Source of the DNA: a bacterium
GTDB lineage: Bacteria; Patescibacteriota; WWE3; 2-01-FULL-39-13; JAACPI01
Assembly (NCBI GenBank): GCA_009995545.1
Contig: JAACPI010000001.1
Span: 115,698-179,697, forward strand
Direction of reading: 5' to 3'
DNA length: 64,000 nt
Shown here: positions 1 through 45,871 of the stretch, in pieces
Layout of the letters: each line of letters starts with the position of its first letter
How positions within the stretch are numbered: position 1 is the stretch's first letter
Made by a program: the position numbers and the translations under genes
The notes under the pieces: generated by a model
Databases searched by the model: none
The model's input: the letters and a program-made list of their open reading frames with translations, nothing else
What the model was told of the DNA's origin: nothing

Positions 1-331
1 TACTTGAGCTTAAAGGCTCGAAACGAAGTATTAACATCAATTAAATACTTCCCTGCGAAACTATAAGTAAATCAAGCACCCTAACGTTAGGAGATATTAT
101 ACACATTAAATGTGTAGTGTAAAGTACTAAAATAACCTATAGTATTAAGGTGCTGCAGTTTAAAAACAGAATTCCTAACCTCTATCTAAACTTGGAGTGA
201 TTCCTCTGGTTACTACTGTGGGAGGAGTTAATTCTGTGTTCATTTACAAAACCCTTTGATATATCTAAAATAGCAACAGTAAAACTAACACCACATTAAC
301 GACCTCGCCCGTCAAAAATACATTACCTATT

Positions 332-1030
332 ATGATATTAGACAACGTAAACAACTTATCTAACGTATTAAATGTTCCAGTATACGCAATGGTTTTGCTG
401 GGCATTGTACCTACAATAGCTACAATAGTAAGTTTTGGTAGACACGTTTTAGGCTTTAAAAGTTTTAGTATTTATGTGCCTATTATTACCAGTATTGTTT
501 TTTTAGACTTAGGTTTAGTTTATGGCTTGGTAGTAGCCTCAATTGTGTTGTTTACTACTCTTATTACCCGAAGGTTACTGATTAAATTTAGAATGCACTA
601 CTTTGTGCGAATTTCTTTTATATACACAATTGTTTGCTTTTTGCTTTTTGGTGTTTTGGTTACTTTGTCGTTTTTTAGCTATGGTGAGCTTTTAAACTTT
701 AAACCTCTTTTTCCGGTAATTTTATTGGTTACCCTAGTAGAAGAGTATTTTAATAGTGTAGTAAAAGATGGGGAAAACAAAGTTATGCTGATGTTTTTAG
801 AAACCTTAGGTATAAGTACTTTAAGCTACTTTATAATTTCTAGTGCATTTTTTACTTCAGTAATTTTAAATAATTTATGGCTTTTGCTTTTGCTTTTTCC
901 TATAAACATAGCTTTAGCAGGGTGGGAAGGCCTGCGTTTTAGTGAGTTATCTAGGTTTAAATCGGTAATTTTAAACGAAATGAACGCAATAGAAGCGGAG
1001 GCAGATACTAAAAAGGAGAAAAAGAAATGA
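332..1030 (+). CDS. Polytopic (about 7 TM) integral membrane protein; likely membrane partner of the downstream ATP-grasp ligase
   Basis: 232-aa ORF with about 7 hydrophobic helices and a Lys/Glu-rich C-terminus. TGA stop overlaps the next ATG (ATGA), indicating translational coupling with the ATP-grasp gene. Resembles the 7TM partner of TIGR02291-type ligase systems (established family association; assignment by inference). Confidence 0.5.
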   Translation: MILDNVNNLSNVLNVPVYAMVLLGIVPTIATIVSFGRHVLGFKSFSIYVPIITSIVFLDLGLVYGLVVASIVLFTTLITRRLLIKFRMHYFVRISFIYTIVCFLLFGVLVTLSFFSYGELLNFKPLFPVILLVTLVEEYFNSVVKDGENKVMLMFLETLGISTLSYFIISSAFFTSVILNNLWLLLLLFPINIALAGWEGLRFSELSRFKSVILNEMNAIEAEADTKKEKKK

Positions 1031-2472
1031 ACCGACTTAGCTTATTTTTAAAAGCTAGTCAAAATGTACTGGGAATAAATGAACGCAATCTTTCTTTTAC
1101 CAAACGTTTTAATAGGGGAAAAAGTAGGTTGTTGGCCGATAATAAGTACAAAACTTATCGTTTACTTAGAAAAAACAAAATCCCAGTTCCCAAATCTTAC
1201 GCAATATTAAAAAAACAATCAGATTTAGCTGATTTTTCATTCGAAAGTATTCCCAGTACCTTTGTTGTTAAGCCAGCATTTGGCTTAGGGGGGACAGGAA
1301 ATTTACTAATTTTTAGTAGAAGTACTAAAACAGGGGATTGGATTGGTATTAATGGTAAAAGATATACCGAAAACGAACTAAAAAGTTTTTGCCAGGCTAT
1401 TCTAGAAAATGCTTTTGCTCTAGATTTTGCAAAAAAAGACGACTTTGTAATTATTCAAGAGAGAATAAAAATAACTAAATCTTTTAGGGCTATAAGCTAT
1501 CCTAAGGGGATACCAGATGTTCGAATAGTAGTGTACAAAAAAATTCCTCTAATGGCCATGTTAAGGCTTCCTACTAAAACAAGCGATGGTAAGGCTAATT
1601 TACATTTAGGGGGTATTGGTGTTGGAATTGACCTTGCAACTGGAATTACTACTTCTGCTGTTCATTACGATGAGCCTATTGAAAAACACCCAGATACTGG
1701 GGTTAATTTAAGTGGTTTTAGTATACCTATGTGGAAAGACATTTTAAAAATTGCCCAAAAGTCAGTCGATGTTTTGGGTTTAGACTTTGGTGCTGTAGAT
1801 GTTGTTTTAGATATTGATCAGGGTCCTATGATTTTAGAGCTTAATGCAAGGCCTGGTTTGTCTATTCAGCTTGCAAATCAGGAGGGCTTAAAGGGCAGAA
1901 TTAATCGCGTTAAGGGTATTAAACCCAGATCGCTACTCCATGCACGTAAAATAGGTACAAGCTTGTTTGGCGGTGAAATTGAGGACACTGTTTTTGACGT
2001 AACAGGGATGCAGGTCGCAGGTTTCATAGCTATGGCAAATTTTTATGGAATTGATCAAAAAGTAGCTAAAAGAATTAAAGTTAAAAATGACACCGGGGCT
2101 CTTTACAGTAGTATTGATAGGGATTTAGCTGATAAATTAGGTTTTGATAAAGCATTAAGTGATTTTGACGAATTAGAGCTTAATAAAACCTACCACGATA
2201 GGGTAGAGGCTTTGCAGCATAAAAAACAAATGGCCAAATTGGTTAAAGATCACCCTGAGATCATTGGTTTAACGGTGGTAAAGTCAGGAAATGGTATCAC
2301 AATTAGACCAAAAGTTAGGATTGGTATAGAGATGGAGGGAAAGAGAATTGAGGCCATTGTTAACATTGCTGATCGAAGTAACATGCTCTATAAAGGTATA
2401 ATTGGAAGAAGAACCTTGCGCAAAAACTTTTTAGTAGATAGCAATAAAATATTTAACAGGTACAAAGACTAA
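1027..2472 (+). CDS. RimK-related ATP-grasp ligase (alpha-L-glutamate ligase-related type) fused to a C-terminal retropepsin-like (DTGA) aspartyl-protease-like domain
   Basis: N-terminus 'VLGINERN...RLLADNKYKTYRLLRKNKIPVPKSYAIL' matches the RimK-like ATP-grasp N-terminal signature. ATP-grasp core motifs include 'ILELNARPG'. C-terminal 'RIKVKNDTGALYSSIDRDLADKLGF ... YKGIIGRRTLRK' has the D-T-G-A retropepsin motif typical of the 'putative ATP-dependent Zn protease' (PF05618-like) family. Confidence 0.6.
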   Translation: MNRLSLFLKASQNVLGINERNLSFTKRFNRGKSRLLADNKYKTYRLLRKNKIPVPKSYAILKKQSDLADFSFESIPSTFVVKPAFGLGGTGNLLIFSRSTKTGDWIGINGKRYTENELKSFCQAILENAFALDFAKKDDFVIIQERIKITKSFRAISYPKGIPDVRIVVYKKIPLMAMLRLPTKTSDGKANLHLGGIGVGIDLATGITTSAVHYDEPIEKHPDTGVNLSGFSIPMWKDILKIAQKSVDVLGLDFGAVDVVLDIDQGPMILELNARPGLSIQLANQEGLKGRINRVKGIKPRSLLHARKIGTSLFGGEIEDTVFDVTGMQVAGFIAMANFYGIDQKVAKRIKVKNDTGALYSSIDRDLADKLGFDKALSDFDELELNKTYHDRVEALQHKKQMAKLVKDHPEIIGLTVVKSGNGITIRPKVRIGIEMEGKRIEAIVNIADRSNMLYKGIIGRRTLRKNFLVDSNKIFNRYKD

Positions 2473-2588
2473 GATTACTAATTTCAAATTACTAACTGCA
2501 CTAATTGTTCTAAGTGAAGAACAGAAGAACTATTACTGAAAGAAAACAAAAAAGTGTAAATTAATAAGTATTAAGTTTCGACTATTCT

Positions 2589-3461
2589 ATGAAAATTGCA
2601 TATATAACATCTAAACCAAATATGAAAGAAACCTACAGGGTTAGAGAAGAAATGGAGGCTTTAGGTCATAGCGTAATTTTAATTAATCTGAGCGACAGCA
2701 GCTTTATATTTAATGAAAGTGGGGTTAAAAATACCCTAATTTCTAAAGAAACCTTTGACATTATCATCGCAAGAGATGTGTTGTCCTACATTAAGCATTA
2801 TGCAACTTTAGTAGAAACTTACCGTAAAAGAGGTATAAAAGTTTACGATAATGGTTTAACAGAGCTAAAATATGTAATAAACAAGCCTGTAGATTTAATG
2901 AAGTTAGCAAGTGTGGGGGTAGCTATACCTAAAACTTTTTTTACAAAAGATTTTGGAGACTATCGAAAAGCTGCAAAGTCGTTTGGTTTTCCTTTAATCT
3001 TTAAAAAAACCAATATGGGAAAAGGAGTAGGTATTTATTTAATGAAAAGCGAAGAAGAATTTGCCGCCTTTTTAGATCAAGAAATTAAAGATGAGGTAAA
3101 GGCAACTAGTTATTTAATGCAGGAGTTTATTGAGTACGAGCACGATTTGCGAGTTTTAGTAATAGGTGATCAAATGTTCGCAATGAAGAGAATTCCAAAA
3201 GAAGGGGATTTTAGAGCAAATTACTCTTTAGGCGGAACGGTAAAATTATTTGAAATAACACCTGAAATAAAAGAATTAGCAACAAAAGCTATAAATGCAG
3301 TCGGAATGAACTATGGAGGTGTAGATGTTTTAATAGACAAAAGTGGAAAACTCTATATTTTAGAGGTAAACCATAATGCAGGGTTTGCAGGAATGGAAGA
3401 AGCCACAGGCAAAAATATAGGAAAAATGTATGTAGAACATGCATTAAAAAGTGCCAAATAA
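2589..3461 (+). CDS. RimK-family ATP-grasp ligase (paralog 2)
   Basis: 290 aa. 'EFIEYEHDLRVLVIGDQMFAMKRIPKEGDFRANYSLGGTV...GGVDVLIDKSGKLYILEVNHNAGF' are classic RimK / glutamate-ligase ATP-grasp motifs. Confidence 0.75.
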   Translation: MKIAYITSKPNMKETYRVREEMEALGHSVILINLSDSSFIFNESGVKNTLISKETFDIIIARDVLSYIKHYATLVETYRKRGIKVYDNGLTELKYVINKPVDLMKLASVGVAIPKTFFTKDFGDYRKAAKSFGFPLIFKKTNMGKGVGIYLMKSEEEFAAFLDQEIKDEVKATSYLMQEFIEYEHDLRVLVIGDQMFAMKRIPKEGDFRANYSLGGTVKLFEITPEIKELATKAINAVGMNYGGVDVLIDKSGKLYILEVNHNAGFAGMEEATGKNIGKMYVEHALKSAK

Positions 3462-3510
3462 ATTTGTAATATTACTTTTCATTTTGCATTTTAAATTTTA
3501 AACTACTCTT

Positions 3511-4443
3511 ATGAACATATTAATCGCTGGTTTAGTTAAAGGTTCACAAGCCACAAGGTTGATTGAAGAAGGAACAAAATTAGGACATGCCGTTCATGGC
3601 ATTTTCGGGTCTCATTTAGTTAGCAGATTTAATGGTAATTTTGTAGATATTGAATTTAGAGATCACCCTTTAAAGCCCCAAGACTACGATATTGTATATT
3701 TAAAGCTAACTGGAAAAACTAAGTTCGACTGGTACCTGGTAGCAAGGCATTTACACGATAAGTTTGGTTTACAGGTTGTGCCCGATAAATACGTATTAGA
3801 CGATTACACCGTTTTTTATTCCCCTCAGGCAGATTATTTAAAACAGGCCGAAGATGCTTCTTTAAAATACCCAAAATCAGTTATCTTTAAGAATGCTGCA
3901 AGTTTAAAAAACGCCATTAAAGGGTTTGAATTTCCTTTAATCTTAAAGCTGTCTGGAGGAAGTTTTGACAGAAAGGGTAGGGGAGTAAAGTTAGTTAGTA
4001 GTTTGGGGGAGCTAAAAGCTTTAATTAAGGAACACAGAGAAGACTCCGAAAGATTTACCTTACGTGAGTTTATACCTAATAATGGAGATTTAAGGGTTTT
4101 TACGGTGGGTTATAAAGCAATAGGTGCTATGAAGCGAACACCTAAAGAAGGGGATTTTAGAAGCAACATAAGCCAAGGAGGAGACGGGGAAGAGTTTGAT
4201 TTGTCTACCAGACCCGATATTGTTCAAATGGCAGAAAAACTTAGCAAAATTACTCGAACGGAGGTTGCAGGTGTGGATATTATGTTACATAAAGAAACGG
4301 GTGAGCCCTATATTTTAGAAATTAACCCCGGTCCGCAATTCGAAGGGTTAGAGAAATACACAAAGGTAAATGCTGCAAAGGAAATAATTAGATATTTTGA
4401 GAGTAAGGTTAAGGGGTTAGGTTACCTTCCTGAGAGTTCATAA
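3511..4443 (+). CDS. RimK-family ATP-grasp ligase (paralog 3)
   Basis: 310 aa. 'LREFIPNNGDLRVFTVGYKAIGAMKRTPKEGDFRSNISQGGDGE...AGVDIMLHKETGEPYILEINPGPQFEG'. Confidence 0.75.
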   Translation: MNILIAGLVKGSQATRLIEEGTKLGHAVHGIFGSHLVSRFNGNFVDIEFRDHPLKPQDYDIVYLKLTGKTKFDWYLVARHLHDKFGLQVVPDKYVLDDYTVFYSPQADYLKQAEDASLKYPKSVIFKNAASLKNAIKGFEFPLILKLSGGSFDRKGRGVKLVSSLGELKALIKEHREDSERFTLREFIPNNGDLRVFTVGYKAIGAMKRTPKEGDFRSNISQGGDGEEFDLSTRPDIVQMAEKLSKITRTEVAGVDIMLHKETGEPYILEINPGPQFEGLEKYTKVNAAKEIIRYFESKVKGLGYLPESS

Positions 4444-4773
4444 TCTTACTTTATAGTATTTTTGAATTTACCTAAATTTTCCTCTTTTAAGGGTGATAAC
4501 TCGCTTTTTGACAACATAGATAAAATTACCCCAAACTTTAATACTTGAATTTCCAATATGGATAAAAAAATTGTACAGAATTTTTTATTTATACCTTGAA
4601 ATCACCCGAGATCTATCCGTATTAAAATGGCTCTCATTAGGGGTTTATAGGGTTTATTGAACAAAAAATTTAAGAAGTAAATAAAATTGTTTGGCAATAA
4701 TCTAGGTGGTTTAAGTAAAGGGTTTTTAGATGGTTTAAAACTTATAATCGGTTAATTTGATATAATTTAAAAT

Positions 4774-6217
4774 ATGACAGAAAAAAGAGAAAAAATTGTT
4801 TGCATAGTTGATAATTTCGCGGAAGTACCAATGCCTGAGGTTGGGGATGTTAAGCTACAAGGACGATTAGATGCTCTTTTACAAGAACAGGATTACGCCC
4901 AAATTTATGAGTTGGGGTCTACTAATCCCAGTGCCTACCCCTATGCAATAGTTTTAGCTTTTAATTTAGGCTACTTGGAATCTATATCTGGTCACCTAAA
5001 GTTCTTTTATCACAATGATATAGAACCTTCCTCGCTCACTGTTAAAAACGGAGGTGATTTAGCTGTGGTTGCTGCTGCTTATACCTCTTTTTATACTAGG
5101 TGGGGTAATAGAGACAACCATTGGTGCAATATGGGGGTTTTAACAGGTCCACGTATCCCCATTAATGAAGATTACTTTCCTAGAATTAATTTTGGTTCTG
5201 AAAAACTTGATCAAGAAATATTAGAACTACTGCAAAAGGTTAATGGGGTTACCTACCAACAAGCCCTGGATCCGGAATACCTTACTTTTTATAAACAACT
5301 GTCTTTTCTAAGTAGAAAACGTGCAATTTACCACGGGGTTTATCCCCAAGGGAAAACACGAGAGGAAGGAGTGGACTACGTATTAACCCATGCAGTTTGT
5401 GAGGCTTTAATTGCCCAGAGTCAACTCGAAGACCCCACTTTACAGGGTTATCGAAAAGATTTTGTTACAGGTCGTGCAAGAAGAGCCTACACCCTTGCCC
5501 AAAAAACTATGGAGAGTATCTATGGTTTTAATATACCTGATTTAGAGAATGGGGGTTTAGATCGTTTAGGAGAATCCCGTAGAATAAAGTATTTGGCTTA
5601 TTATCAGGAGGTAATTCAGCGACTTTTAGCTTATGACCCTGAAGATAGCCGGGTAATATCTAGGGATATGAGCAGCTGGTACCTTGATAAATCTACAAAA
5701 TGGAGGGATTTCTCAAGGGCAGTCAGGCCGTTAGCTACCTCTCTAGGTCCTTTTTGGTTTTATGCTGAGGATAATGTGCCAAAAGAGGTTAAGGATAAAG
5801 GGGGGGGGGTATCGTAAACGCAGAGAAGCCTATAACGATTGGTTTATGAACCGAATGAGGAAAGAGAAATCAGAATCTAGGAGAGAAGAGCTGCTTGCAA
5901 ATGCAAAAGGAGATATTGCAGTTTGGAATTCCCGATTTGCAGGCAAAGTTCCCTTCTTTATTCGAGGGGACAACGGTGAGCTAGAGGTTACTTTTGAAAT
6001 AGACTTACGCGAAGCGGAACTGTGCCTTGGTTCACCGCAGGAGCTGGGGAGAATTCAGGCCACGGTTAGAACATCCTTTGCTATTGATTCTTCTAGAAAA
6101 TCCAAGCTTGCCAAAATTTTACACCCTGACGCTCTAGGAATACCCGCCGAACTTGAGGAATCCTACGCTTTAGAACGAAAACTAAAGGAGGAGATTTTTA
6201 AAATCCGTAATATTTGA
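4774..6217 (+). pseudogene. GC-rich hypothetical gene split by a +1 frameshift at a G10 homopolymer (frame 1 ORF 4774-5817, frame 2 ORF 5762-6217); phase-variable or degraded
   Basis: The two overlapping ORFs change frame exactly at G10 (5800-5809). Local GC is about 42-46% against a window background of about 34%. No recognisable domain. Confidence 0.5.
5800..5809. repeat. G10 homopolymeric tract (slipped-strand candidate)
   Basis: Ten consecutive G at the frameshift point of the 4774-6217 gene. Confidence 0.9.
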
Positions 6218-6384
6218 TATTAGGTGCAAAGACCTCTATTTAGGGCCTTTATCGGAATATTTCCGCCAACAATTTTCATTAGGGTTTATATTTTGTAATT
6301 GCTTGGGTACAACTTGCTTTAAGCTGATTTAGCACCTAACAAGGTTGCAAATCACCCTAAGAGTAGTATATAATCACCCCTGTT

Positions 6385-6699
6385 ATGAAAGACAAGATAC
6401 ACCCAAAAGTTAATAAAAAAGCTAAAGTTACTTGTAACTGTGGCCACACCTTTACAACTACCAGTGTTTTAGAAGAAATTAGGGTAGAAGTTTGTAGTCA
6501 ATGTCACCCCTTTTATACAGGTGTTGAGAAGTTTATAGACACAGAGGGTAGAGTAGACAGCTTTAAGAGAAAACAAGATGTCGCAAAAGAAAGACAAAAA
6601 GTTATTTTGCAAAAATTAAAAGTAAAAAAGACTAAAGAAAAAGAACAAAAACAAGGCCCCTTGTCCTTAAAAGATTTACTTAAACAGGCGGGTAAATAA
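6385..6699 (+). CDS. rpmE: 50S ribosomal protein L31 with Lys-rich C-terminal extension
   Basis: 'MKDKIHPKV...[13 protein letters not shown]...[13 protein letters not shown]' is the L31 zinc-ribbon signature. Confidence 0.85.
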
Positions 6700-24276: not shown

Positions 24277-26718
24277 ATGATTTATTTTATAGTTTTAATT
24301 GTAACTTTAGTAGTAATTGCCGCAGGCTATCTTTCTTTCCAAAAGGTACAAAAATTAAATAGTAAAAGTATACTTCCCTCAAACCTAGTAGTTTTAAATG
24401 TTCGTGTCCCAAAAGCTATTGAAAAGGAGGAGGTAGAAAATGCCTCGACTGCAGCAGAAAGAATGTTCTCTAGCTTACACGGTATTTTAAATAGTGCCCA
24501 GAAAAGATCCGAGGAGGTTATAAATTTAGAAATTTACTCTTCTAAGTCAGGTATAAGCTTTTATGTGGTTATACCCGAAGGGATAAAAAGCTTTGTAGAA
24601 AATCAAATATACGCTCAGTACAAAGGAGCTCAGATTACTGTTAAAGAAGACTATTTATCAGAGTTTAATTTAGAGAATAAAAAATCTAAATTAGTAAATC
24701 TAACCTTATCAAAAAAAAGTTTTTTCCCCTTAAAAACGTTTTTAGAATTCGATGTGGACCCTTTGTCTTCGGTTACGGCAGCCCTCTCTGAGGTTAAGGG
24801 TGAAGATAAGATTGTACTGCAACTCTCCGTTTTACCTCTGGCTGACTCTTGGCAAGAGGAGGGGCATGAGTACACCACTGCTTTAAAAGCGGGTACTTTA
24901 AACTCTCCTGGAATTTTTGGGATAATATTTTCTGCTCTAATGAAAGGGTTTAATAACTTATTATTTGGTTTTTCTGAAGAATCTTCTAAGGCGGTTTCTG
25001 GAAAGTCTTTGTCTGTTGTAGAAGAAAAGCATATCCAAATAATTGAGGAAAAACTAGCAAAAATGGGTTTTGACTCCCAGATAAAAATATTTGTAAGTTC
25101 AGATGATGACGCATCCTCTAGCTCTTATCTTAGGTCTGTAATAGGTAGTTTTAGACAATACACTAGTGCACAACATAATGCTTTAATTCAGGGATCTTTA
25201 TCTTACGAGGATAGCTTTGCCTTGGACTTTTTAAAGTCACGAACGTTGATTTCTGAGGACTCTTACATTTTTAATACAGAGGAGCTTGCTAGTATTTACC
25301 ATTTTCCCTCCGGTGTTGTTGCAACTCCAAACATTGCTTGGACAAACTCTAAAAAAGGTGAACCACCTTTAAATTTACCTATAGAAGGCGATGTGAATTT
25401 TTTTGGTACCACTAACTTTAGAGACAAAGAAGTAAAATTTGGGATTAAAAACAACCAAGATAGAATGAGGCACATGTACTTTGTAGGTAAAACTGGAACA
25501 GGTAAATCTACAGTTTTTGAAAACATGATTATTCAAGACATTATTGATGGTAGGGGTTGCTGTTATATCGATCCACACGGTGAAACTATAGAAAAAATAC
25601 TTTCAAGAGTTCCTAAAGATCGAATTGACGACGTAGTTTTAATCGATCCTTCTAATGCAGATAGGCCCCCCGCAATTAATATTATGGAGTGTCCCGACCC
25701 TTCACAAAAAAATCTTTTATCTTCGAGCATACTTTCTGCTTTTAAATTACAGTTTGGTTACAGCTGGGGTCCGAGATTAGAATATCTTTTAAATTTTGCC
25801 CTACTTACCTTAACTGAAATCGAAGGTACATCTCTTTTGGGTATTACAAGACTTTTAACTGATAAGAACTATAGAAAATATATATTACAAAAAACAGATG
25901 ATCCTGTGGTTCTAAGATTTTGGAATGAGGAGTACGCTGAGCTAGAGCAGAGCTTTGGAGCAGAGGCTGTAAGCCCTATTCAAAATAAAGTTGGTAGACT
26001 ATTGTCCTCAACTACCTTAAGAAATATCTTTGGACAAAGAAATTCTACAATTCAGTTTGACGAAATAATGAACGAAAAGAAAATTTTACTTGTTAATTTG
26101 AGTAAGGGAAAAATTGGAGACGATAACGCAAACTTAATGGGTTCATTAATAGTTAACCGACTAACCTTTTATGCAATGCAAAGGGCTAGTTTATTAGAAA
26201 AAGACCGAGTGCCCTTTTATTTGTATGTAGATGAGTTTCAGAACTTTGCAACAGAGAGTTTTATTACAATATTGAGCGAGGCCCGAAAATACGGCCTATC
26301 TTTACATTTAACTCACCAGTACACTGCTCAGCTTCCAGAACCCATTAGAGATGCTATTTTGGGTAATGTGGGTACAATGATAGCACTAACTCTTGGAGCT
26401 CAAGACGCCTCCACATTAGCACCCGAATTTATGCCCACCTTTGACGAGACTGACCTAATTAGCCAGGAAAAATATAATTTTTACTGTAAACTTCAAATAG
26501 ATGGAGCTACTAGTAAGCCATTTTCTGGTAGGGGATTGCCTCCAGTGTATTTAGAAGAGTCTAACTACAGTAAAGAAATAAAGGCTCTATCCTCGGAAAA
26601 GTACGGTAGAGACAAAGCTTATGTACAAGAAAAAATTAAAATTTGGTTGAATAGACCTTTTGATGTCGGTATGGCAATAGCCGAAAATTATCGAAAAACA
26701 GCCAATAATAAATCTTAG
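24277..26718 (+). CDS. Membrane-anchored P-loop NTPase of the TraD/TraG/VirD4 (type IV coupling protein) / FtsK-HerA superfamily
   Basis: N-terminal TM helix. Walker A 'FVGKTGTGKST', Walker B 'FYLYVDEFQNF', C-terminal 'HLTHQYTAQL'. 813 aa. Confidence 0.5.
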   Translation: MIYFIVLIVTLVVIAAGYLSFQKVQKLNSKSILPSNLVVLNVRVPKAIEKEEVENASTAAERMFSSLHGILNSAQKRSEEVINLEIYSSKSGISFYVVIPEGIKSFVENQIYAQYKGAQITVKEDYLSEFNLENKKSKLVNLTLSKKSFFPLKTFLEFDVDPLSSVTAALSEVKGEDKIVLQLSVLPLADSWQEEGHEYTTALKAGTLNSPGIFGIIFSALMKGFNNLLFGFSEESSKAVSGKSLSVVEEKHIQIIEEKLAKMGFDSQIKIFVSSDDDASSSSYLRSVIGSFRQYTSAQHNALIQGSLSYEDSFALDFLKSRTLISEDSYIFNTEELASIYHFPSGVVATPNIAWTNSKKGEPPLNLPIEGDVNFFGTTNFRDKEVKFGIKNNQDRMRHMYFVGKTGTGKSTVFENMIIQDIIDGRGCCYIDPHGETIEKILSRVPKDRIDDVVLIDPSNADRPPAINIMECPDPSQKNLLSSSILSAFKLQFGYSWGPRLEYLLNFALLTLTEIEGTSLLGITRLLTDKNYRKYILQKTDDPVVLRFWNEEYAELEQSFGAEAVSPIQNKVGRLLSSTTLRNIFGQRNSTIQFDEIMNEKKILLVNLSKGKIGDDNANLMGSLIVNRLTFYAMQRASLLEKDRVPFYLYVDEFQNFATESFITILSEARKYGLSLHLTHQYTAQLPEPIRDAILGNVGTMIALTLGAQDASTLAPEFMPTFDETDLISQEKYNFYCKLQIDGATSKPFSGRGLPPVYLEESNYSKEIKALSSEKYGRDKAYVQEKIKIWLNRPFDVGMAIAENYRKTANNKS

Positions 26719-27588: not shown

Positions 27589-28248
27589 ATGGATAGTATA
27601 GAGCAACAAGCAATAAAAGCTGCTATAGCAGGAGACTGGGAAACAGCTATAAAATTAAATAACCAAGTTTTAGACTCCGGTACTAAATCAGTAGCCTTAT
27701 TTAATCGTCTGGGTAAAGCATATTCTGAAGTTTCTAATTGGGCTAAGGCTGTAAGTAGTTTTGAAAGTGCCTTAGAGCTAGACCCTGTAAATTCAGTTGC
27801 CGAAAGGGGAATTACTTCTGCAAAATTAAATAAAAGAGCTGGCGTTTCTACACTAAATCCAAGTGACACCGTGGTTAAAGATATGAGTACGGTTAAAATA
27901 ATAGAAACAAGTAGCTTTAAGTTAGAACTAAATAAAGATTATGAGCTAGTTATAGGTAATAACGATACTTTTTACTTCTTATTGGATAGTTTAAGCGGAA
28001 AAAAATTAAGAAGAATTAGTAAAAAGAATTTAGGGCTAAAGTCTGGAGCCCGACCCCAAAAGTTGCAAGCTAAAGTTATCGAAATCAATGATGATATAGC
28101 TAGAATTAAAATCTCTTCTGATTTGCCTTCGTTTACCGCAGAAAAAGCCCAGACAGACCCTTTTTTAGAGGTAAAATCTAAAGTTCTTGAGGAAGAGAAG
28201 CTCCATTTTACGAAGCTTTATGAGGCTGAACAAGAGATTGAAGAATAA
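27589..28248 (+). CDS. TPR-repeat protein
   Basis: N-terminal TPR-like helices ('AIKLNNQVLD…LGKAYSEVSNWAKAVSSFESALELDP'). Confidence 0.5.
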   Translation: MDSIEQQAIKAAIAGDWETAIKLNNQVLDSGTKSVALFNRLGKAYSEVSNWAKAVSSFESALELDPVNSVAERGITSAKLNKRAGVSTLNPSDTVVKDMSTVKIIETSSFKLELNKDYELVIGNNDTFYFLLDSLSGKKLRRISKKNLGLKSGARPQKLQAKVIEINDDIARIKISSDLPSFTAEKAQTDPFLEVKSKVLEEEKLHFTKLYEAEQEIEE

Positions 28249-28314: not shown

Positions 28315-28845
28315 ATGTCAGGTCATTCTAAATGGAGTACTATAAAAAGAAAAAAAGCTATAGAAGATAACAAAAGAGGTAAGGATTTTACCAAGCTTGC
28401 TAAAGCGATTACTGTTGCAGTTAAAAAAGGTAACAATGGTGATCCAGAACTAAATTCATATTTAAGGATAGCTGTAGAAAAAGCCAAGCAATTAAATTTA
28501 CCCAAAGATAAAATCCAGTCTGCAATTGATAGGGCACTTGGCAAGGAAGGTGAGGCACTTATAGAAGTCAATTATGAGGCTTATGTTTACGGTGGAATAG
28601 GCCTTATTATTTATTGTGGAACAGATAACACTAATCGTTCAATAAACGAAGTAAAAGCAATTCTTTCTAAACACGATTCCGGTATAGGTACACCTAATTC
28701 CGTAGCCTATCTATTTAATTCTGAGGGACAACCTTCATTTAAAATACCTTTACAAAAAGAATTGACGGATAGATTTAATGATTTACTTGACGAGCTTGAG
28801 GACTTAGATGACGTTATGGAGCTTGCACACAATGCTGAATTTTAA
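28315..28845 (+). CDS. YebC/PmpR-family (DUF28) regulator, minimal 176-aa form
   Basis: 'MSGHSKWSTIKRKKAIEDNKRGKDFTKLAKAITVAVKKG' and C-terminal 'LEDLDDVMELAHNAEF'. Confidence 0.75.
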   Translation: MSGHSKWSTIKRKKAIEDNKRGKDFTKLAKAITVAVKKGNNGDPELNSYLRIAVEKAKQLNLPKDKIQSAIDRALGKEGEALIEVNYEAYVYGGIGLIIYCGTDNTNRSINEVKAILSKHDSGIGTPNSVAYLFNSEGQPSFKIPLQKELTDRFNDLLDELEDLDDVMELAHNAEF

Positions 28846-37914: not shown

Positions 37915-38509
37915 AAATCAGTCTTAACGCTTCCGCGGGACTTTCATAAAGACTATTACCATTAAACTTTATTTGTTGGAAATTTCCTACTAGTGTTAAA
38001 ACTCTGTTGGATATAGCCATCCTAGAGTACATAATGTTATCTTTTTCAAAAGCACCCACTACTAGGTTGATTTGCCCAATCTTAGTCTCACATACCTTTT
38101 TAGATTCATTAGAGTTTATTTTAGAAAAGCTCATTTTTGGGTTAATTTCTTGAATTTTTAAAATGAAATTCTTTATAATTTCTTCTACAATACTTACTTC
38201 TTCCGCATTTATATCTAGGTTTGTAACGGAAAAAGATACGCCGTATCCTTCTCCCGCCCAAGGGGACTCTATATTTTGATAATTAAATTGTAAACCGTTC
38301 TCAGGGTTTATGATTATACACCATGAATCTTGGTTATTTAGTAATTGGAAAAATATACAGTCTTCAGTTTCGAAGGATCTAATATACGTCTCACGTTCGA
38401 GATCTTCTAGAAGTACTTCTCGTTTATAGCCATTATAATTATCTGGTTCGTGAGAGGTTTCAATCTCTAGTTTTTCCTCGTCCTTTGGACTTGGTTGTGT
38501 TTTACTCAT
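37868..38509 (-). CDS. Hypothetical protein (213 aa)
   Basis: ORF in the gyrA operon with coding-like composition and no recognisable domain. Confidence 0.45.
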
Positions 38510-41129
38510 CCAAATAAGTTACTGTGGACAGGTAGTCAGTTTTTCCTTTAAATTTCATTAATATAACGCCTTGTGTACTTCTTGAAAGTATAGGGACCTT
38601 TTTAATGGATATTCTAATAACTACACCCTCTGCGCTAGTTAGTAGCAGGTCGCCCTGGTTACTTACAATTAAACTATCAGTTAGATTTCCCGTCTTAGGT
38701 GTAATGTTAGTAGTTTTAACCCCTTTACCCCCTCTGGTTATCTTGCTGTACTCTGTAAGTCTAGTTTTTTTACCATAACCTTTTTCGCTTACAGTTAGGG
38801 TGTAAAGGTTTTCTTCGTCTTCAGGTTTAAATGTTTGTACCGAAATTACTTCATCGTCTTTTCCAAGTTTTATTCCTCTTACTCCCCCAGCAGATCGGCC
38901 CATTACTCTCACATCACTTTCATTAAATCTGATACTTTTACCCTGTCTTGTAGTTATAAGTATGTTTTGATTCCCACCTGTAAAATCCGTAGAAGCTAGG
39001 GTATCACCTTCTTTTAACCCAATGGCAATTATTCCATTTTGCCTTACATTTTGAAAATCTTCTAAAGGTGTTCTTTTTACTGACCCCTTTTTAGTAGTAA
39101 ATAACACATACTTGATTTCAGACTTAGTCTCTGGATCATAACTACAGAATTCAGTTACTGTTTCGTTACTCTTTAAATCTAAAAGGTTAATTACATTAGT
39201 ACCTTTAGACTGCCTTGAGCTTTCAGGTACATCCCAGGCGCGTTTTTTGTATGCCCTACCTAAATTGGTAAAAAACAACATCTCATCGTGTGTTGTAACG
39301 TAAGTTACACTTTTAATTTGGTCTGCCTCTTTTGTAGACATTCCTAATACTCCCTTACCTCCCCTGGTTTGTTTTTTGTAGGTACTTGGTTGAAGTCTTT
39401 TTATGTAGCCTGTTTTTGTTAAAGATATAATAGCCTCCTCTTTTGCTACTAGATCTTCCTCGTTTAAAATTCCTACTTTTCCAGCAACAATTTCTGTTTT
39501 TCTTTCATCACCGTAGTTCTTTTTTATTTCGGTAAGTTCATCTGTAATAATCGAAAGGATTTTTTCGGGGCTAGCAAGAATTGCTTTTAATTCGCCAGTT
39601 TTTCTTAAGACTTCTTTAAGCTCTTCTTCTATTTTTTCTCTTTCTAATTGAGCAAGTCTTCTTAGCTGCATATCTAAAATAGCTACAGCCTGCATTTCAC
39701 TAAAGCCAAATTTAGCCATTAAGCTTGTTTTTGCTTCTTCTGTGTCCTGGGATGCCCTTATTGTTTTAATTACTTCTTCAATATTATCTAAAGCTATTTT
39801 GTAACCTAAGAGTATGTGTTCTCTCTCTTGTAGTTTAGCCAAATTATATTCACTTCTTCTAATTATGATGTTTTGTCTATGTCTTACAAACTCCTCAAGA
39901 ATCATTTTTAGATTCATTACTCGGGGTTCGTTGTTTACTAGAGCTACAAAGTTAGAATTAAAGTTTGACTGAAGTTCTGTGTGTTTATAAAGTTTATTTA
40001 AAATCTTTTGAGGTCTAGCGCCCTGTTTAGTCTCGATTACTACTCTTATCCCAGTTCTATCACTTTCATCTCGTAAATCGGTAATGCCTTCAACTTTTTT
40101 ATCTCTTACTAGGTCAGCTATTTTACTTACTAGTCTTGCTTTGTTCACCTGATAAGGTAGTTCAGTAACAATAATGGCAAATTTTCCATTTTTAAGTTCT
40201 TCGATATTTGTTCTTGCTCTCGTAACTACTCTGCCTTTTCCTGTTGCGTACATCTGTAGTAGCTCTGTTTTATCATAAATAATTCCAGCAGTTGGAAAAT
40301 CCGGTCCTTGTACATGTTGTACTAGCTGTTCTATAGTAGCCTCACCATCAAATACAGGGATTTGTCTTTCTTCCATTATTTGCTCTCTTACTAAATAGGC
40401 GTCTTTATCCTCAAAAGGTACTCTTGCTTGTGGTAAAAGAATTTTATTCTCAATATCTGGTTTGTAGCTTTTAATTAAGGTAATTGTTGCATCTACAACT
40501 TCGTTTAAGTTATGTGGTGGCATACTTGTTGCCATCCCTACCGCTATCCCTTGGGCACCATTTAGTAATAAGTTTGGTACTACACTTGGTAAAAGAATAG
40601 GCTCTCGGTATTCTGCGGAGTAGTTATCCATAAAAACGACTGTTTCTTCGTTAATATTTTGCATTAACTCTAGTGATATTTTACTTAATTTGGCTTCGGT
40701 ATATCTCATTGCTGCAGCACTGTCGCCGTCAATTGAACCAAAGTTTCCCTGCCCATTAATAAGTGGGTATCTTAAAGAAAAAGGTTGGGCCATTCTAACC
40801 ATTGCATCGTACACAGAAACATTATCGTGCGGGTGGTACTTTGCTAAAACTTCTCCAACTATTTTTGCACATTTCTGATGCTTGCTGCTTGGAAGCGCCC
40901 CTATCTCTAAAGCCGCATATATTATTCTTCTTTGTACTGGCTTTAAACCATCTCTAGCATCGGGTAGGGCTCTAGCTACGATAACACTCATTGCATAGTC
41001 TAAGTAGGCCTTTTGCATTTCATCTACAATCTTTACGTCTCTTATTTTGTCATTCCCCTCCCCAACTGCGGAGTTTAAATCTTCAGCTTCGTTTGGTATT
41101 AATGAATCTACTGCATCTATGTTTTTCAT
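38502..41129 (-). CDS. gyrA: DNA gyrase subunit A
   Basis: '[17 protein letters not shown]' active-site region, and a GyrA C-terminal beta-pinwheel with repeated 'GGKG' motifs. 875 aa. Confidence 0.95.
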
Positions 41130-41132
41130 ATG

Positions 41133-41681
41133 TTAGTTAAGTTTAAACTTTTCATTATAATCTTCCATTGATTTCAAAATATGTATATAGGCCTCTTTAG
41201 GACCTAAAAAATTTCCTACAGTAACGCTCTGTGGTCCTGTTTGAGCGTGTTTGTATATTTCAAAAAAATGTTGCATATCTTTAAGTCTCCAAGGCGGTAA
41301 ATCGTCTAATGATTTAACATGGTCGTATCTAGGATCCACATTATTTACGGTAATTATTTTATGATCTTTTTGCCCGTTATCCACCATTTCCATCATACCT
41401 ACTACCCGCCCTGCAACCATGGATCCAGGAATTAGATTTCCCGTGGTAAATAATACCGCGTCTAAAGGGTCGTTATCGTGTTTGTTCCAAGTTCTGGGGA
41501 CATCACAATAGATTACTGGATAGTGAACAGGGCCGTGTAAGACTCTATCTACTTCTAGTATCCCATACTCCTCTCTGTACTCATACTTAATAAAGTCTCC
41601 TTTTTGTATTTCTACTACAAGATTTAAAATTTTAGGAGCTTGCTCTTGTGGGATAATGTGAAAATGTGTTCTTAATTCCAT
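41133..41681 (-). CDS. ppa: Family I inorganic pyrophosphatase
   Basis: 'DPLDAVLF', 'MVDNGQKDHKII' and 'DHVKSLDDL' PPase signatures. Confidence 0.85.
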   Translation of the reverse strand: MELRTHFHIIPQEQAPKILNLVVEIQKGDFIKYEYREEYGILEVDRVLHGPVHYPVIYCDVPRTWNKHDNDPLDAVLFTTGNLIPGSMVAGRVVGMMEMVDNGQKDHKIITVNNVDPRYDHVKSLDDLPPWRLKDMQHFFEIYKHAQTGPQSVTVGNFLGPKEAYIHILKSMEDYNEKFKLN

Positions 41682-41685
41682 CGTT

Positions 41686-43023: not shown

Positions 43024-43026
43024 ATT

Positions 43027-44946
<1,920 letters not shown>

Positions 44947-45043
44947 TTAAGAGTTTAGGCGGTATTTATAAAATTCAGTAATTTTGCTTCTGTTTAGACG
45001 TATCTGATTATATCATAAAGAAACAGTGTTTCCATCTATACTT

Positions 45044-45670: not shown

Positions 45671-45871
45671 TATTATCAGAATAATTTTAGAGACTTTTTA
45701 ATAAAATTGAAATACATTTATCTTACAGTTATAGTTATATTAGTATAAAAGAAATAAACACTATATGTTTAGGTGTAGTTTTTTTGTATTTAATATAAAA
45801 TATCATTAAGTTGCCCATACGTATAACATCGAGATAAATAATTTTTTTAAACATTTGTATCTTCTGCCCAA

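What the first reader, a model, noticed from the sequence alone, without database searches (positions are those of the whole stretch)
332..4443. 7-TM membrane protein plus three tandem RimK-type ATP-grasp ligases: candidate peptide-ligation/tagging system
Seen in sequence: a 7-helix membrane protein is translationally coupled (ATGA overlap) to an ATP-grasp ligase whose N-terminus carries the 'GINERN…' signature of the 'alpha-L-glutamate ligase-related' RimK clade. Two further RimK paralogs (290 and 310 aa) follow in the same orientation. Established knowledge: that RimK clade is recurrently linked to a 7TM (often transglutaminase-fused) protein and a retropepsin-like protease in a predicted but experimentally uncharacterised peptide-tagging or small-peptide-synthesis system. 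Three ligases in a row with a membrane partner in a minimal genome suggests stepwise, non-ribosomal poly-amino-acid or peptide-tail synthesis. The substrate is unknown.
Basis: partly seen in the sequence, partly recalled or inferred. Interest (0 to 1): 0.65.

Follow-up and report, generated by a model that had tools for sequence, protein, structure and literature searches.

The report
Membrane-linked peptide ligase and protease cluster
A four-gene cluster in a tiny-genome (CPR) bacterium encodes a seven-helix membrane protein, an amino-acid-adding enzyme fused to a retrovirus-type protease, and two more adding enzymes; I found no published description of this compact, rearranged version of the recently named Rlo/Rim polyglutamate systems, which affect bacterial envelope integrity.

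Summary
ORFs at 332-1030, 1027-2472 (ATGA overlap), 2589-3461 and 3511-4443 are a PF14402 7TM protein, a PF14397/TIGR02291-type ATP-grasp ligase and two RimK-family ligases.

It forms the C-terminal third of ORF2 (aa ~334-478), with invariant D-T/S-G-A and I-I-G-R motifs. It also keeps the basic residues that RloA uses to bind polyglutamate.

The system is no longer uncharacterised. Its proteobacterial counterpart was named rloABC in 2025, and RimK/RimB is the cytoplasmic analogue.

The window carries a distinct CPR-wide variant:
- The 7TM protein has no transglutaminase-like domain.
- The ligase and protease are fused, in the opposite order to the known RimBK hybrid, which puts the protease in the cytoplasm.
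- Between 0 and 3 highly diverse accessory RimK-like ligases follow the fusion gene.

The 7TM gene precedes the fusion gene in 82/82 related loci, and 55/75 loci carry accessory ligases. 7TM-ligase and protease-7TM fusions found elsewhere indicate that the modules work as one complex.

Most likely mechanism: a membrane-docked synthase makes acidic (poly-alpha-glutamate-like) peptides, and the built-in endopeptidase clips them. The product, the export step and the role of the two paralogues are inferred, not shown.

Verdict: new variant of a known kind, of moderate interest.

The parts
243..271 (+). Best sigma-70-like promoter match upstream of ORF1 (TTTACA-17-TAAAAT). Weak evidence only.
   Evidence: 10/12 match, about 60 nt upstream of the ORF1 start. 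Promoter-like sites in the region are no more frequent than in shuffled sequence (20 found vs 20.1 expected).
332..1030 (+). ORF1, 232 aa. RloB-like seven-TM membrane protein with no extracytoplasmic transglutaminase-like domain.
   Evidence: PF14402 at 57.8 bits; NCBIfam RloB C-terminal part 319-506/508; 25% identity to Legionella RloB aa 318-429, E=2e-7. AF2 model; conservation of aa 11-19 in 60-80%-identity homologues supports the start at 332.
929..958 (+). Cytoplasmic motif G-L-R-F-S-E-L-S-R-F directly after TM7 (R202, E205, R208 and F209 invariant). Proposed docking surface for the ligase.
   Evidence: invariant across CPR proteins and Legionella RloB; present as RLKEYYRF in the haloarchaeal 7TM-ligase fusion; coordinates.
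1027..2472 (+). ORF2, 481 aa. RloC-type ATP-grasp ligase fused to a C-terminal retropepsin-like protease. Translationally coupled to ORF1 (ATGA).
1069..1089 (+). N-terminal signature L-G-I-N-E-R-N (L15, N18, R20, N21 invariant). It lies in a low-confidence, probably flexible segment of the model.
   Evidence: (pLDDT <50 at residues 10-15).
1084..1914 (+). ATP-grasp ligase domain (aa 20-296). Invariant residues include K82, E145/R146, D258, E271, N273 and R275.
   Evidence: PF14397 E=8e-68; 41% identity to Legionella RloC, E=4e-69. Foldseek top hits are ArgX, RimK and LysX..
1963..1986 (+). Invariant Glu-rich linker motif L-F-G-G-E-I-E-D (family consensus LFGGE[IV]EE) between the two domains. 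Function unexplained.
   Evidence: L313, F314, G315, G316, E317 and E319 are 26/26; pLDDT <50 at 317-322; absent from the Legionella RloC C-terminus.
2026..2460 (+). Retropepsin-like aspartic protease domain (aa ~334-478), RloA/RimB family (PF05618).
   Evidence: PF05618 E=4e-5, 24 bits, below the gathering cut-off of 27. NCBIfam RloA3 E=1.9e-9; family profile vs PDB 9g58/9g59 at 1e-6 and 4e-6. PF05618 in 23/26 family members, best 1.9e-10; pLDDT 80-92.
2077..2100 (+). Catalytic motif K-V-K-N-D355-T-G-A, with K353 equivalent to RloA K46. Further substrate-binding equivalents: R427-P428 at nt 2305-2310, R450 at nt 2374-2376, and I-I-G-R-R at nt 2398-2412.
   Evidence: D355, G357, A358, R427, P428, R450 and G460 are 26/26; K/R353 is 26/26. 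Mapped onto RloA K46/D48/R114/R137 through the alignment and PMC12239564.
2589..3461 (+). ORF3, 290 aa. RimK-family ATP-grasp ligase, full-length RimK-like. Accessory ligase.
   Evidence: TIGR00768 at 156.8 bits, above the 143.4 cut-off. Pseudomonas RimK 7qyr, E=2e-25 over aa 1-286. Mg/ATP motifs GVDVL and ILEVN.
3511..4443 (+). ORF4, 310 aa. Divergent RimK-family ATP-grasp ligase, 30% identical to ORF3. Accessory ligase.
   Evidence: PF08443 at 97.6 bits; TIGR00768 at 123.4, below cut-off. RimK hits at E~1e-16 over aa 141-298..

Best explanation
The locus is a compact CPR-type relative of the Rlo/Rim polyglutamate systems. It most likely works as a membrane-docked 'synthesise-and-clip' machine.

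(1) INFERRED from homology: the N-terminal RloC-type ATP-grasp domain of ORF2 uses ATP to add acidic amino acids, most likely L-glutamate through alpha-peptide bonds as RimK does, onto a carboxylate acceptor. This builds an oligo- or poly-glutamate chain.

(2) INFERRED from conserved catalytic and substrate-binding residues: the fused C-terminal retropepsin domain dimerises between ligase protomers and cuts glutamate-rich chains endoproteolytically in the cytoplasm. That would limit chain length and release product, as RimB does for RimK.

(3) The association is SHOWN by comparative genomics; the function is INFERRED: ORF1, the RloB-like 7TM protein, binds the ligase at its conserved cytoplasmic face (R37/G41, R93, E137, R202-x-x-E-x-x-R-F). 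It couples the reaction to the membrane, most plausibly by passing the product, or a signal, to the cell surface.

(4) Recurrent linkage is SHOWN; chemistry is UNKNOWN: ORF3 and ORF4 are optional, lineage-variable RimK-family ligases that prime, extend or diversify the same product.
For: Family placement:
- ORF2 N-domain: PF14397 at 229 bits, TIGR02291 at 266 bits, 41% identity to Legionella RloC. The fold is closest to ArgX, RimK and LysX.
- ATP/Mg residues K82, D258, E271, N273 and R275 are invariant.

Protease domain:
- NCBIfam RloA3 at 1.9e-9.
- Family profile vs PDB 9g58/9g59 at 1e-6.
- PF05618 in 23/26 family members.
- D355-T/S-G-A and I-I-G-R are invariant.
- The residues equivalent to RloA K46, R114 and R137 are conserved 26/26. 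Mutating R114 or R137 most strongly reduced polyE cleavage and abolished complementation; K46 is a predicted polyE contact.

Experimental precedent:
- RloA and RimB cleave runs of at least 8 Glu.
- RimB stimulates RimK polyE synthesis.
- Deleting rloB or rloC suppresses the loss of the proteases, which means the protease removes what the ligase and 7TM protein make.

Complex formation:
- ATGA coupling.
- The 7TM gene lies directly upstream of the fusion gene in 82/82 loci, across at least 6 different flanking contexts.
- Rosetta-stone fusions: 7TM+ligase on a Halobacterium plasmid, protease+7TM in Chloroflexi-type proteins, and ligase+protease here.
- The cytoplasmic-face motif is shared with RloB.

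Accessory ligases:
- They lie directly downstream in 55/75 loci (0:20, 1:22, 2:24, 3:9).
- They occur in 8/18 loci that sit outside the RuvC-flanked gene context typical of Moranbacteria, and in the 67%-identity relative L092 with the same order as the window.
Against: - No biochemical product is known, even for Pseudomonas RloC. Glutamate specificity is extrapolated from RimK and from the protease's conserved basic pocket.
- The window protein's own PF05618 score (24 bits) and TIGR02291 score (266 bits) fall below the curated cut-offs, so the domain call rests on family-level evidence.
- In Pseudomonas, and in the Chloroflexi-type fusions, the protease is outside the membrane. Here it is inside. 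The logic of the system may therefore differ from Rlo and be closer to cytoplasmic Rim.
- 20/75 loci, and the 59%-identity relative L093, have no accessory ligase, so ORF3 and ORF4 are dispensable for the core function and might act on something else.
- The neighbourhood counts come mostly from one CPR class and are not phylogenetically independent.
Confidence: 0.5

Rival explanations
1. Cell-wall-directed system. The ligases add amino acids or a short peptide to a peptidoglycan precursor or another wall polymer. The 7TM protein hands the product to the outside, and the protease edits it. The variable accessory ligases would then set lineage-specific wall decoration.
For: - In Moranbacteria/Paceibacteria the cluster is followed on the same strand, with short gaps, by a class A PBP in 44/55 loci. 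RuvA, FemAB and a Mur-type ligase come next.
- In L008 three Mur ligases start 15 nt after the fusion gene.
- mreB lies convergently next to the fusion gene in L077, L078 and L088.
- YdjC-type deacetylase and MATCAP-type carboxypeptidase genes are interspersed.
- Pseudomonas rlo mutants show cell-shape, hypo-osmotic and beta-lactam phenotypes, and the authors speculate about peptidoglycan homeostasis.
- A Shewanella RloB mutant over-produces membrane vesicles.
- PF14397 is named 'sugar-transfer associated'.
Against: - The PBP linkage is confined to one lineage, where the cluster sits between ruvC and ruvA, so it may be inherited synteny.
- The window and its close relatives have translation and stringent-response neighbours instead: S21, YqeY, L31, RelA/SpoT.
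- My rough estimate is that wall or shape genes fall within +/-5 genes by chance about 20% of the time in a ~1000-gene genome. Three of about six contexts is therefore not significant.
- The fused protease is cytoplasmic.
- No glycosyltransferase or flippase is present in the window cluster.
Confidence: 0.2
2. Cytoplasmic protein-tail regulator of the Rim type. The ligases polyglutamylate the C-terminus of a protein, such as ribosomal protein S6 or another translation factor, and the fused protease removes the tail. The 7TM protein only anchors or regulates the enzyme in response to envelope or osmotic cues.
For: - The protease domain is cytoplasmic, like RimB, and an active RimB-RimK hybrid is known.
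- ORF3 is a full-length RimK homologue that passes the TIGR00768 cut-off.
- In the window lineage the cluster sits among S21, YqeY, L31 and RelA/SpoT genes. In L094 it lies about 3.5 kb from ssb-rpsR, the usual partners of rpsF.
Against: - ORF3 and ORF4 score 87 and 68 bits against the S6-ligase equivalog, whose cut-off is 331.
- No rpsF is present in the window, and no acidic-tailed small ORF lies in the cluster.
- The core ligase belongs to the RloC clade, which is genetically separate from Rim in Pseudomonas: a rimB deletion does not interact with rloA mutants.
- The obligatory 7TM partner (82/82) and the extracytoplasmic domains fused to it elsewhere (PKD, transglutaminase, protease) point to an extracellular aspect.
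Confidence: 0.15
3. ORF3 and ORF4 are functionally unrelated neighbours, for example cofactor glutamylation or amino-acid-carrier ligases of the LysX, MptN or CofF type. Only ORF1 and ORF2 form a system.
For: - 20/75 loci and L093 lack accessory ligases.
- The gaps of 116 and 49 nt show no translational coupling.
- The accessory ligases fall into many subfamilies. ORF4 is a singleton and ORF3 groups only with a Dojkabacteria gene that lies 5 kb away on the other strand.
Against: - ATP-grasp ligases lie directly downstream on the same strand in 55/75 loci and in several independent flanking contexts.
- The same order recurs in the 67%-identity relative.
- Scores against the LysX, MptN and CofF equivalogs are far below cut-off.
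- There is no LysW-like carrier ORF.
- CPR genomes generally lack the corresponding cofactor and lysine pathways (my own background knowledge).
Confidence: 0.1

Closest known systems
RloA-RloB-RloC operon of Pseudomonas aeruginosa (Lormand et al., mBio 2025, PMC12239564). The canonical arrangement is also seen here in Legionella adelaidensis (L089) and Aeromonas caviae (L090).
   Same: - Same three modules: a PF14397/TIGR02291 ATP-grasp (41% identity to Legionella RloC), a PF14402 7TM module with the same invariant cytoplasmic motif, and a PF05618 retropepsin with the same catalytic and polyE-binding residues.
- The membrane-protein and ligase genes share the same 4-nt overlap.
   Different: - The 7TM protein has no inactive transglutaminase domain (PF14400).
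- The protease has no signal peptide and is fused to the C-terminus of the cytoplasmic ligase rather than secreted.
- Gene order is 7TM then ligase-protease, instead of protease, 7TM, ligase.
- Up to three extra RimK-like ligases are attached.
- The host is CPR (presumed to have no outer membrane), not Gammaproteobacteria.
RimK-RimB and the RimBK hybrid (Little et al., JBC 2025, PMC11957791; RimK structures 4iwx, 5zct, 7qyr, 7qys).
   Same: - A cytoplasmic ATP-grasp alpha-L-glutamate ligase is paired with, or fused to, a retropepsin that trims polyglutamate.
- ORF3 aligns full-length with RimK (E=2e-25).
   Different: - Domain order is reversed: RimBK has the protease at the N-terminus, whereas here it is at the C-terminus.
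- The fused ligase belongs to the RloC clade, not RimK. RimK structures match only aa 235-273 of the family profile, at 1e-5.
- A membrane partner is obligatory here.
- No link to rpsF could be shown.
Predicted 'RimK-like ATP-grasp + 7TM-transglutaminase + PF05618 peptidase' peptide-modification system of Iyer, Abhiman, Burroughs and Aravind (Mol Biosyst 2009). Cited from my own knowledge; the paper was not available in the library.
   Different: As far as I could check, the fused, transglutaminase-less CPR form with accessory ligases is not described in the papers I could search.
LysX/ArgX-LysW amino-group carrier ligases.
   Same: They are the best structural matches of the ORF2 ligase domain (3vpb at 1.4e-11), and they are RimK-family enzymes that ligate onto a protein's C-terminal carboxylate.
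   Different: - ORF3 scores 130 bits against the LysX model, whose cut-off is 276.
- There is no LysW-like carrier ORF.
- There are no lysine or arginine pathway neighbours.
Tubulin-tyrosine-ligase / MATCAP carboxypeptidase cycle.
   Same: In related Moranbacteria loci the cluster includes a TTL/YheCD-like ATP-grasp and a PF08014 MATCAP-family peptidase. This is again a pair of enzymes that add and remove C-terminal residues.
   Different: These genes are not present in the window, and the resemblance is only at the level of Pfam families.

Membership tests
Rlo system (RloABC) | RloC-type ATP-grasp ligase (TIGR02291 / PF14397) | tested here: inconclusive
   PF14397 at 229 bits is far above its cut-off, and identity to Legionella RloC is 41% (E=4e-69). 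However, TIGR02291 scores 266.3 bits, below its 314.2 cut-off. The clade is right, but equivalog status is not reached.
Rlo system (RloABC) | RloB: a periplasmic inactive transglutaminase domain (PF14400) fused to the 7TM module (PF14402) | tested here: not met
   Only the 7TM module is present (PF14402 profile positions 55-247; NCBIfam RloB positions 319-506/508 at 27 bits vs a 900-bit cut-off). There is no PF14400 hit. The canonical proteins have both domains.
Rlo system (RloABC) | RloA: a separate, secreted retropepsin with an N-terminal signal peptide | tested here: not met
   The retropepsin domain is present but fused after the cytoplasmic ligase, with no TM segment or signal peptide between them.
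Rlo system (RloABC) | Retropepsin catalytic Asp and the basic polyE-binding residues (K46, D48, R114, R137 in RloA) | tested here: met
   K353, D355, R427 and R450 are conserved 26/26 in the family (with K/R at position 353).
Rlo system (RloABC) | Operon linkage of the membrane protein and the ligase | tested here: met
   ATGA overlap. Adjacency in 82/82 loci. The same overlap occurs in Legionella.
Rlo system (RloABC) | Hypo-osmotic, envelope and biofilm phenotype, with suppression by loss of the ligase or 7TM protein | not testable with these tools
   This requires genetics, and the organism is uncultivated.
RimK / RimB (S6 polyglutamylation) | RimK-family ligase (TIGR00768; S6-ligase equivalog NF007764) | tested here: inconclusive
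   ORF3 passes the TIGR00768 subfamily cut-off (156.8 vs 143.4), and ORF4 does not (123.4). Both are far below the S6-ligase equivalog cut-off (86.9 and 67.6 vs 331).
RimK / RimB (S6 polyglutamylation) | Substrate: ribosomal protein S6 with a C-terminal Glu-Glu | not testable with these tools
   There is no rpsF in the 64-kb window, and the rest of the genome is not available.
RimBK hybrid | RimB protease domain at the N-terminus of a RimK ligase | tested here: not met
   The order here is ligase (aa 20-296) then protease (aa 334-478), and the ligase is of the RloC type.
Cyanophycin synthetase | ATP-grasp G domain plus a Mur-ligase-like M domain in a protein of about 870 aa | tested here: not met
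   There are only short partial hits (at most 36 bits vs a cut-off of 850), and no Mur-ligase domain is present in ORF2-4.
LysX/ArgX carrier-protein ligases | Equivalog score plus an adjacent LysW-type carrier | tested here: not met
   ORF3 scores 129.8 and ORF4 80.0 vs a cut-off of 275.6. No small carrier ORF is present.

The most novel reading that the evidence does not exclude
The 7TM protein plus the ligase-protease fusion, together with its hypervariable set of accessory ATP-grasp ligases, is a membrane-coupled non-ribosomal peptide synthase and exporter. It would make a lineage-specific anionic (glutamate-rich) peptide that is delivered to, or built onto, the CPR cell envelope. That would be a previously unrecognised class of envelope polymer in these ultra-small bacteria. 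It would also be the ancestral logic behind the Pseudomonas Rlo osmotic and cell-shape phenotype. The invariant LFGGE-E-E linker would serve as an internal primer or self-cleavage site.
Probability: 0.2. Interest if true: 0.8.

Novelty: new variant of a known kind. Interest (0 to 1): 0.55.

Why it matters
The biochemical product of the Rlo system is still unknown, even though the system matters for antibiotic tolerance, biofilm formation and osmotic survival in Pseudomonas.

- **Distribution.** The 2025 paper reports RloB hits as 96% proteobacterial and treats the rlo operon as an innovation of Gammaproteobacteria. The window shows that the same three modules are widespread in CPR bacteria. 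Variants also occur on a haloarchaeal plasmid and in Chloroflexi-type MAGs, in different fusion combinations.
- **What the fusions imply.** They argue that ligase, protease and membrane protein form one physical machine. They also fix the membrane topology, with the 7TM C-terminus and the ligase inside the cell.
- **A simpler experimental system.** The CPR form has two core genes and no periplasm. The protease is in cis, so it can be inactivated with a single D355N change. This makes it a good minimal system for finding out in vitro what the ligase makes.
- **Possible envelope role.** The variable accessory ligases, and the wall-synthesis neighbours in some lineages, hint at an undescribed envelope chemistry in CPR organisms.

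Tried and rejected
- **Single-sequence PDB searches** with ORF2 or its C-terminal 140 aa gave nothing usable. A family profile was needed.
- **Foldseek on the whole ORF2 model** was dominated by ATP-grasp hits and did not show the protease domain.
- **The AFDB library** was unavailable.
- **Rfam and terminator scans** of 1-6400 gave no RNA element and no convincing internal terminator. Promoter-like sites were at background frequency.
- **Substrate search.** There is no rpsF in the window. The only acidic-tailed ORF is a TPR-like protein 23 kb away. There is no small carrier or precursor ORF in the intergenic gaps.
- **Cyanophycin synthetase, LysX/ArgX, MptN, CofF and graspetide maturase readings** were rejected because their scores fall far below the curated cut-offs.
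- **ORF5 and ORF6 as part of the system** was rejected. They follow a 330-nt gap, are absent from the 67%-identity relative L092, and have no Pfam, NCBIfam, PADLOC or PHROG hits.
- **The representative-library search** with the linker plus protease region returned only 249 hits, many of them fragments, so it does not measure family size.
- **Iyer et al. 2009** could not be read.
- **The organism** could not be named beyond 'bacterium'. The nearest named relative of ORF1 (62% identity) is from candidate division WWE3.

Full report
**1. Observation**

- ORF1 and ORF2 overlap by ATGA, and a GGAG lies 9 nt before the ORF2 start.

| ORF | Model | Score | Cut-off |
|---|---|---|---|
| ORF1 | PF14402 7TM_transglut | 57.8 bits | 25 |
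| ORF2 | PF14397 | 229 bits | 31.4 |
| ORF2 | TIGR02291 'alpha-L-glutamate ligase-like' | 266 bits | 314 (not reached) |
| ORF3 | PF08443 RimK | 106 bits | 21 |
| ORF4 | PF08443 RimK | 98 bits | 21 |
| ORF3 | TIGR00768 | 157 bits | 143 |
| ORF4 | TIGR00768 | 123 bits | 143 (not reached) |

- Hydropathy, the positive-inside rule and an AF2 model (pLDDT 74.5) agree on about seven TM helices. The N-terminus is outside, and a long basic C-terminal helix is inside.
- The 'GINERN' motif is real and invariant (L15, N18, R20, N21) in 26 homologues.

**2.

ORF2 is about 165 residues longer than a canonical RloC. Its C-terminal third (aa ~334-478) is a retropepsin-like aspartic protease.

- It hits NCBIfam RloA3 at E=1.9e-9 and PF05618 at E=4e-5. 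The PF05618 score of 24 bits is just under the gathering score.
- 23 of 26 family members hit PF05618, the best at 1.9e-10, and three hit Asp_protease_2.
- A profile of the family matches the solved PF05618 structures 9g58 and 9g59 at 1e-6 and 4e-6, through both retropepsin signatures.
- D355-[T/S]-G357-A358 and I-I-G460-R are invariant.
- Via the alignment, the RloA residues that contact polyglutamate in the published model can be mapped onto ORF2. In RloA these are K46, R114 and R137; mutating R114 or R137 most strongly reduced cleavage and abolished complementation (PMC12239564). They correspond to K353 (K/R in 26/26), R427 (26/26, within R-P) and R450 (26/26).
- AF2 models the domain confidently (pLDDT 80-92).
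- No hydrophobic segment separates it from the ligase, so it is cytoplasmic.

**3. Known relatives**

NCBIfam now carries the names RloA and RloB.

- *Lormand et al. 2025.* In P. aeruginosa, rloA encodes a secreted retropepsin, rloB an inactive transglutaminase fused to a 7TM module, and rloC an ATP-grasp.
  - The three RloA paralogues cleave runs of at least 8 Glu.
  - Losing all three causes hypo-osmotic death, cell-shape defects, and biofilm and beta-lactam defects.
  - Deleting rloB or rloC suppresses these defects.
- *Little et al. 2025.* The cytoplasmic homologue RimB trims polyE tails made by RimK and stimulates RimK's polyE synthesis. [quoted passage not shown]
- *Canonical operons were recovered for comparison.* In Legionella adelaidensis (L089) the genes are PF05618 (152 aa), PF14400+PF14402 (508 aa) and PF14397 (314 aa), with the same 4-nt overlap between the last two. 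Aeromonas (L090) has the same layout.
- *Pairwise comparisons.* The ORF2 N-domain is 41% identical to Legionella RloC (E=4e-69). ORF1 aligns with RloB aa 318-429 (E=2e-7).

**4. The window carries a distinct, widespread CPR variant**

- The exact ORF2 sequence occurs on more than 20 metagenome contigs. In NCBI it is labelled only '[bacterium]'. The nearest named ORF1 relative (62% identity) is from candidate division WWE3.
- More than 6000 homologues were found. The best 120 are nearly all ~470-aa ligase-protease fusions, and the named ones come from Moranbacteria and Parcubacteria.
- I scanned one genome per species and kept 80 loci, all from Patescibacteria-type MAGs and at most 43% identical to ORF2. 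I annotated them, plus four metagenome loci, using seed proteins:

| Feature | Count |
|---|---|
| 7TM gene directly upstream of the fusion gene | 82/82 |
| Same-strand ATP-grasp genes directly downstream: 0 / 1 / 2 / 3 | 20 / 22 / 24 / 9 (n=75) |

- Two accessory ligases, as in the window, is therefore the most common arrangement.
- The 67%-identity relative L092 has the window's order: S21, YqeY, 7TM, fusion, RimK, RimK, L31, then RelA/SpoT further on. It lacks ORF5 and ORF6, which are therefore a lineage-specific insertion. L093 has no accessory ligase, and L094 has one.
- The accessory ligases fall into more than 10 subfamilies in many combinations. ORF3 groups only with a Dojkabacteria gene, and ORF4 is a singleton. 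ORF3 and ORF4 are 30% identical to each other.
- Both retain the RimK nucleotide and Mg motifs. ORF3 aligns end to end with Pseudomonas RimK.

**5. Evidence that the modules form one machine, and the topology**

- A Halobacterium plasmid carries an unannotated 584-aa ORF that fuses the same transglutaminase-less 7TM module (aa 51-243) to an RloC-type ligase (aa 286-557). The conserved 'R-x-x-E-x-x-R-F' and 'LGIN-x-RN' motifs lie about 45 residues apart.
- Chloroflexi-type proteins P0321 and P0322 consist of a signal anchor, a retropepsin and the 7TM module. An overlapping ligase gene follows P0321.
- Some CPR proteins carry a signal peptide and a PKD domain in front of the 7TM module. Others carry an active-type transglutaminase core.
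- All three pairwise fusions therefore exist.
- The N-terminal side of the 7TM module is extracytoplasmic and its C-terminus is cytoplasmic.
- The residues that are invariant or nearly so between the CPR proteins and Legionella RloB are R37, G41, R93, E137, T158 and R202/E205/R208/F209. All of them fall on the cytoplasmic face.
- The CPR form is unusual in placing the protease inside the cell. It lies outside in Pseudomonas and in the Chloroflexi-type proteins. CPR cells are thought to lack an outer membrane (my own knowledge), so a soluble secreted protease would have no periplasm to be retained in.

**6. Mechanism**

I commit, with about 0.5 confidence, to a membrane-docked synthesise-and-clip machine.

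- The RloC-type ligase builds an acidic, most likely alpha-polyglutamate, chain.
- The fused retropepsin, dimerising between ligase protomers, cuts the chain in the cytoplasm.
- The 7TM partner docks the enzyme and passes product or signal to the surface.
- ORF3 and ORF4 are optional tailoring or priming ligases.

What is shown: domain identities, conserved catalytic and substrate-binding residues, obligatory gene linkage, and the fusions. What is inferred: glutamate specificity, protease activity in this protein, export, and any action of ORF3 and ORF4 on the same product.

Two features remain unexplained:
- The invariant LFGGE[IV]EE linker (aa 313-320) has low model confidence and is absent from free-standing RloC.
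- The invariant N-terminal LGINERN segment lies in a low-confidence part of the model.

**7. Rival explanations**

- *A cell-wall-directed role.* Several neighbourhoods suggest it:
  - In Moranbacteria/Paceibacteria, class A PBP follows in 44/55 loci, then RuvA, FemAB and a Mur-type ligase.
  - Three Mur ligases start 15 nt after the fusion gene in L008.
  - mreB lies next to the fusion gene in three Microgenomates-type loci.

  The Pseudomonas and Shewanella envelope phenotypes fit as well. However, the PBP linkage belongs to one lineage where the cluster sits between ruvC and ruvA. The window lineage has translation and stringent-response neighbours instead. My rough chance estimate makes the signal non-significant.
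- *A Rim-like cytoplasmic protein-tail regulator.* This fits the internal protease and the S21/L31/RelA neighbours. It does not explain the obligatory 7TM partner or its extracytoplasmic add-ons, and rpsF could not be examined.
- *ORF3 and ORF4 as unrelated neighbours.* This is unlikely given their recurrence in independent contexts, but it is not excluded.

**8. Novelty and verdict**

- In the literature I could search, I found no description of the fused, transglutaminase-less CPR form.
- The 2025 paper reports RloB as 96% proteobacterial, and the RimBK hybrid has the opposite domain order and a different ligase clade.
- This is a new variant of a known kind, not a new kind of system.
- Interest is moderate (0.55). 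It broadens and rearranges a system whose chemistry is an open question, and it offers a two-gene minimal version for solving that question. Nothing here yet reveals the product.

Noticed in passing
window 4774-6217 (ORF5 347 aa, ORF6 151 aa): Two overlapping ORFs with no Pfam, NCBIfam, PADLOC or PHROG hit sit between ORF4 and rpmE, after a 330-nt gap. They are absent from the 67%-identity relative L092, where rpmE directly follows the second RimK gene. In one strain variant (L004) ORF5 is split into 252 + 113 aa. This looks like a lineage-specific insertion of unknown function.
   Followed up: partly
window 27589-28248 (+), next to yebC at 28315-28845: A 219-aa TPR-like protein ends in '...LYEAEQEIEE'. 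It has the only strongly acidic C-terminus among the window's ORFs, and the ending resembles the E-I-E-E of the fusion-protein linker. It could be an acceptor for a RimK-type ligase. In Moranbacteria, yebC lies just upstream of the ruvC-7TM-fusion cluster.
   Followed up: partly
L091 4167-5921 (Halobacterium sp. DL1 plasmid CP007061, record 106092-107846, minus strand): An unannotated 584-aa ORF encodes a 7TM (PF14402) + ATP-grasp (PF14397) fusion next to transposase genes. It is an archaeal, plasmid-borne member of the system with no retropepsin nearby.
   Followed up: yes
L010 11408-13348 and 13995-15377; L005 9453-10472: Moranbacteria clusters contain a double ATP-grasp protein (646 aa, with RimK-like and TTL/YheCD-like halves) and a 460-aa PF08014 MATCAP-family peptidase, often together with a YdjC-type deacetylase. 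These are bacterial counterparts of the enzyme families in the tubulin tyrosination cycle.
   Followed up: partly
L012, L013, L015, L016, L025, L031, L038, L072 and others (record titles): Many 'TPA_asm' MAGs titled uncultured Bdellovibrionales, Micavibrio, Gammaproteobacteria, Saccharibacteria or Fimivivens carry the same RuvC, 7TM, fusion, ligase, PBP1 gene order as Moranbacteria MAGs. Their taxon labels are probably wrong.
   Followed up: no
L090 (NZ_AP026896.1): A 4.94-Mb Aeromonas caviae record is filed in the plasmid collection as 'plasmid pKAM479_3', with only 18 annotated features. It is evidently a chromosome, and its rloABC-like genes are unannotated there.
   Followed up: no
window 24277-26718 (+): An 813-aa protein gives weak TraG/VirD4 coupling-protein and HerA/DUF87 ATPase hits, which suggests a possible DNA-translocation or conjugation-type ATPase in this small genome.
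   Followed up: no
window ~38000-46000: GC skew and AT skew change sign over a block of minus-strand genes, including gyrA at 38502-41129. Cumulative skew has a local maximum near 38 kb and a minimum near 46 kb. This tracks gene orientation, and no replication origin or terminus was tested.
   Followed up: no
A2 alignment columns 330-380 (C-terminal tails of ORF1 homologues); window 959-1027: In the WWE3-like clade the cytoplasmic tail of the 7TM protein is an acidic patch (E/D-rich) followed by a lysine-rich run of variable length, up to about 60 residues. In the window it reads NEMNAIEAEADTKKEKKK. Moranbacteria and Legionella homologues lack this tail.
   Followed up: no
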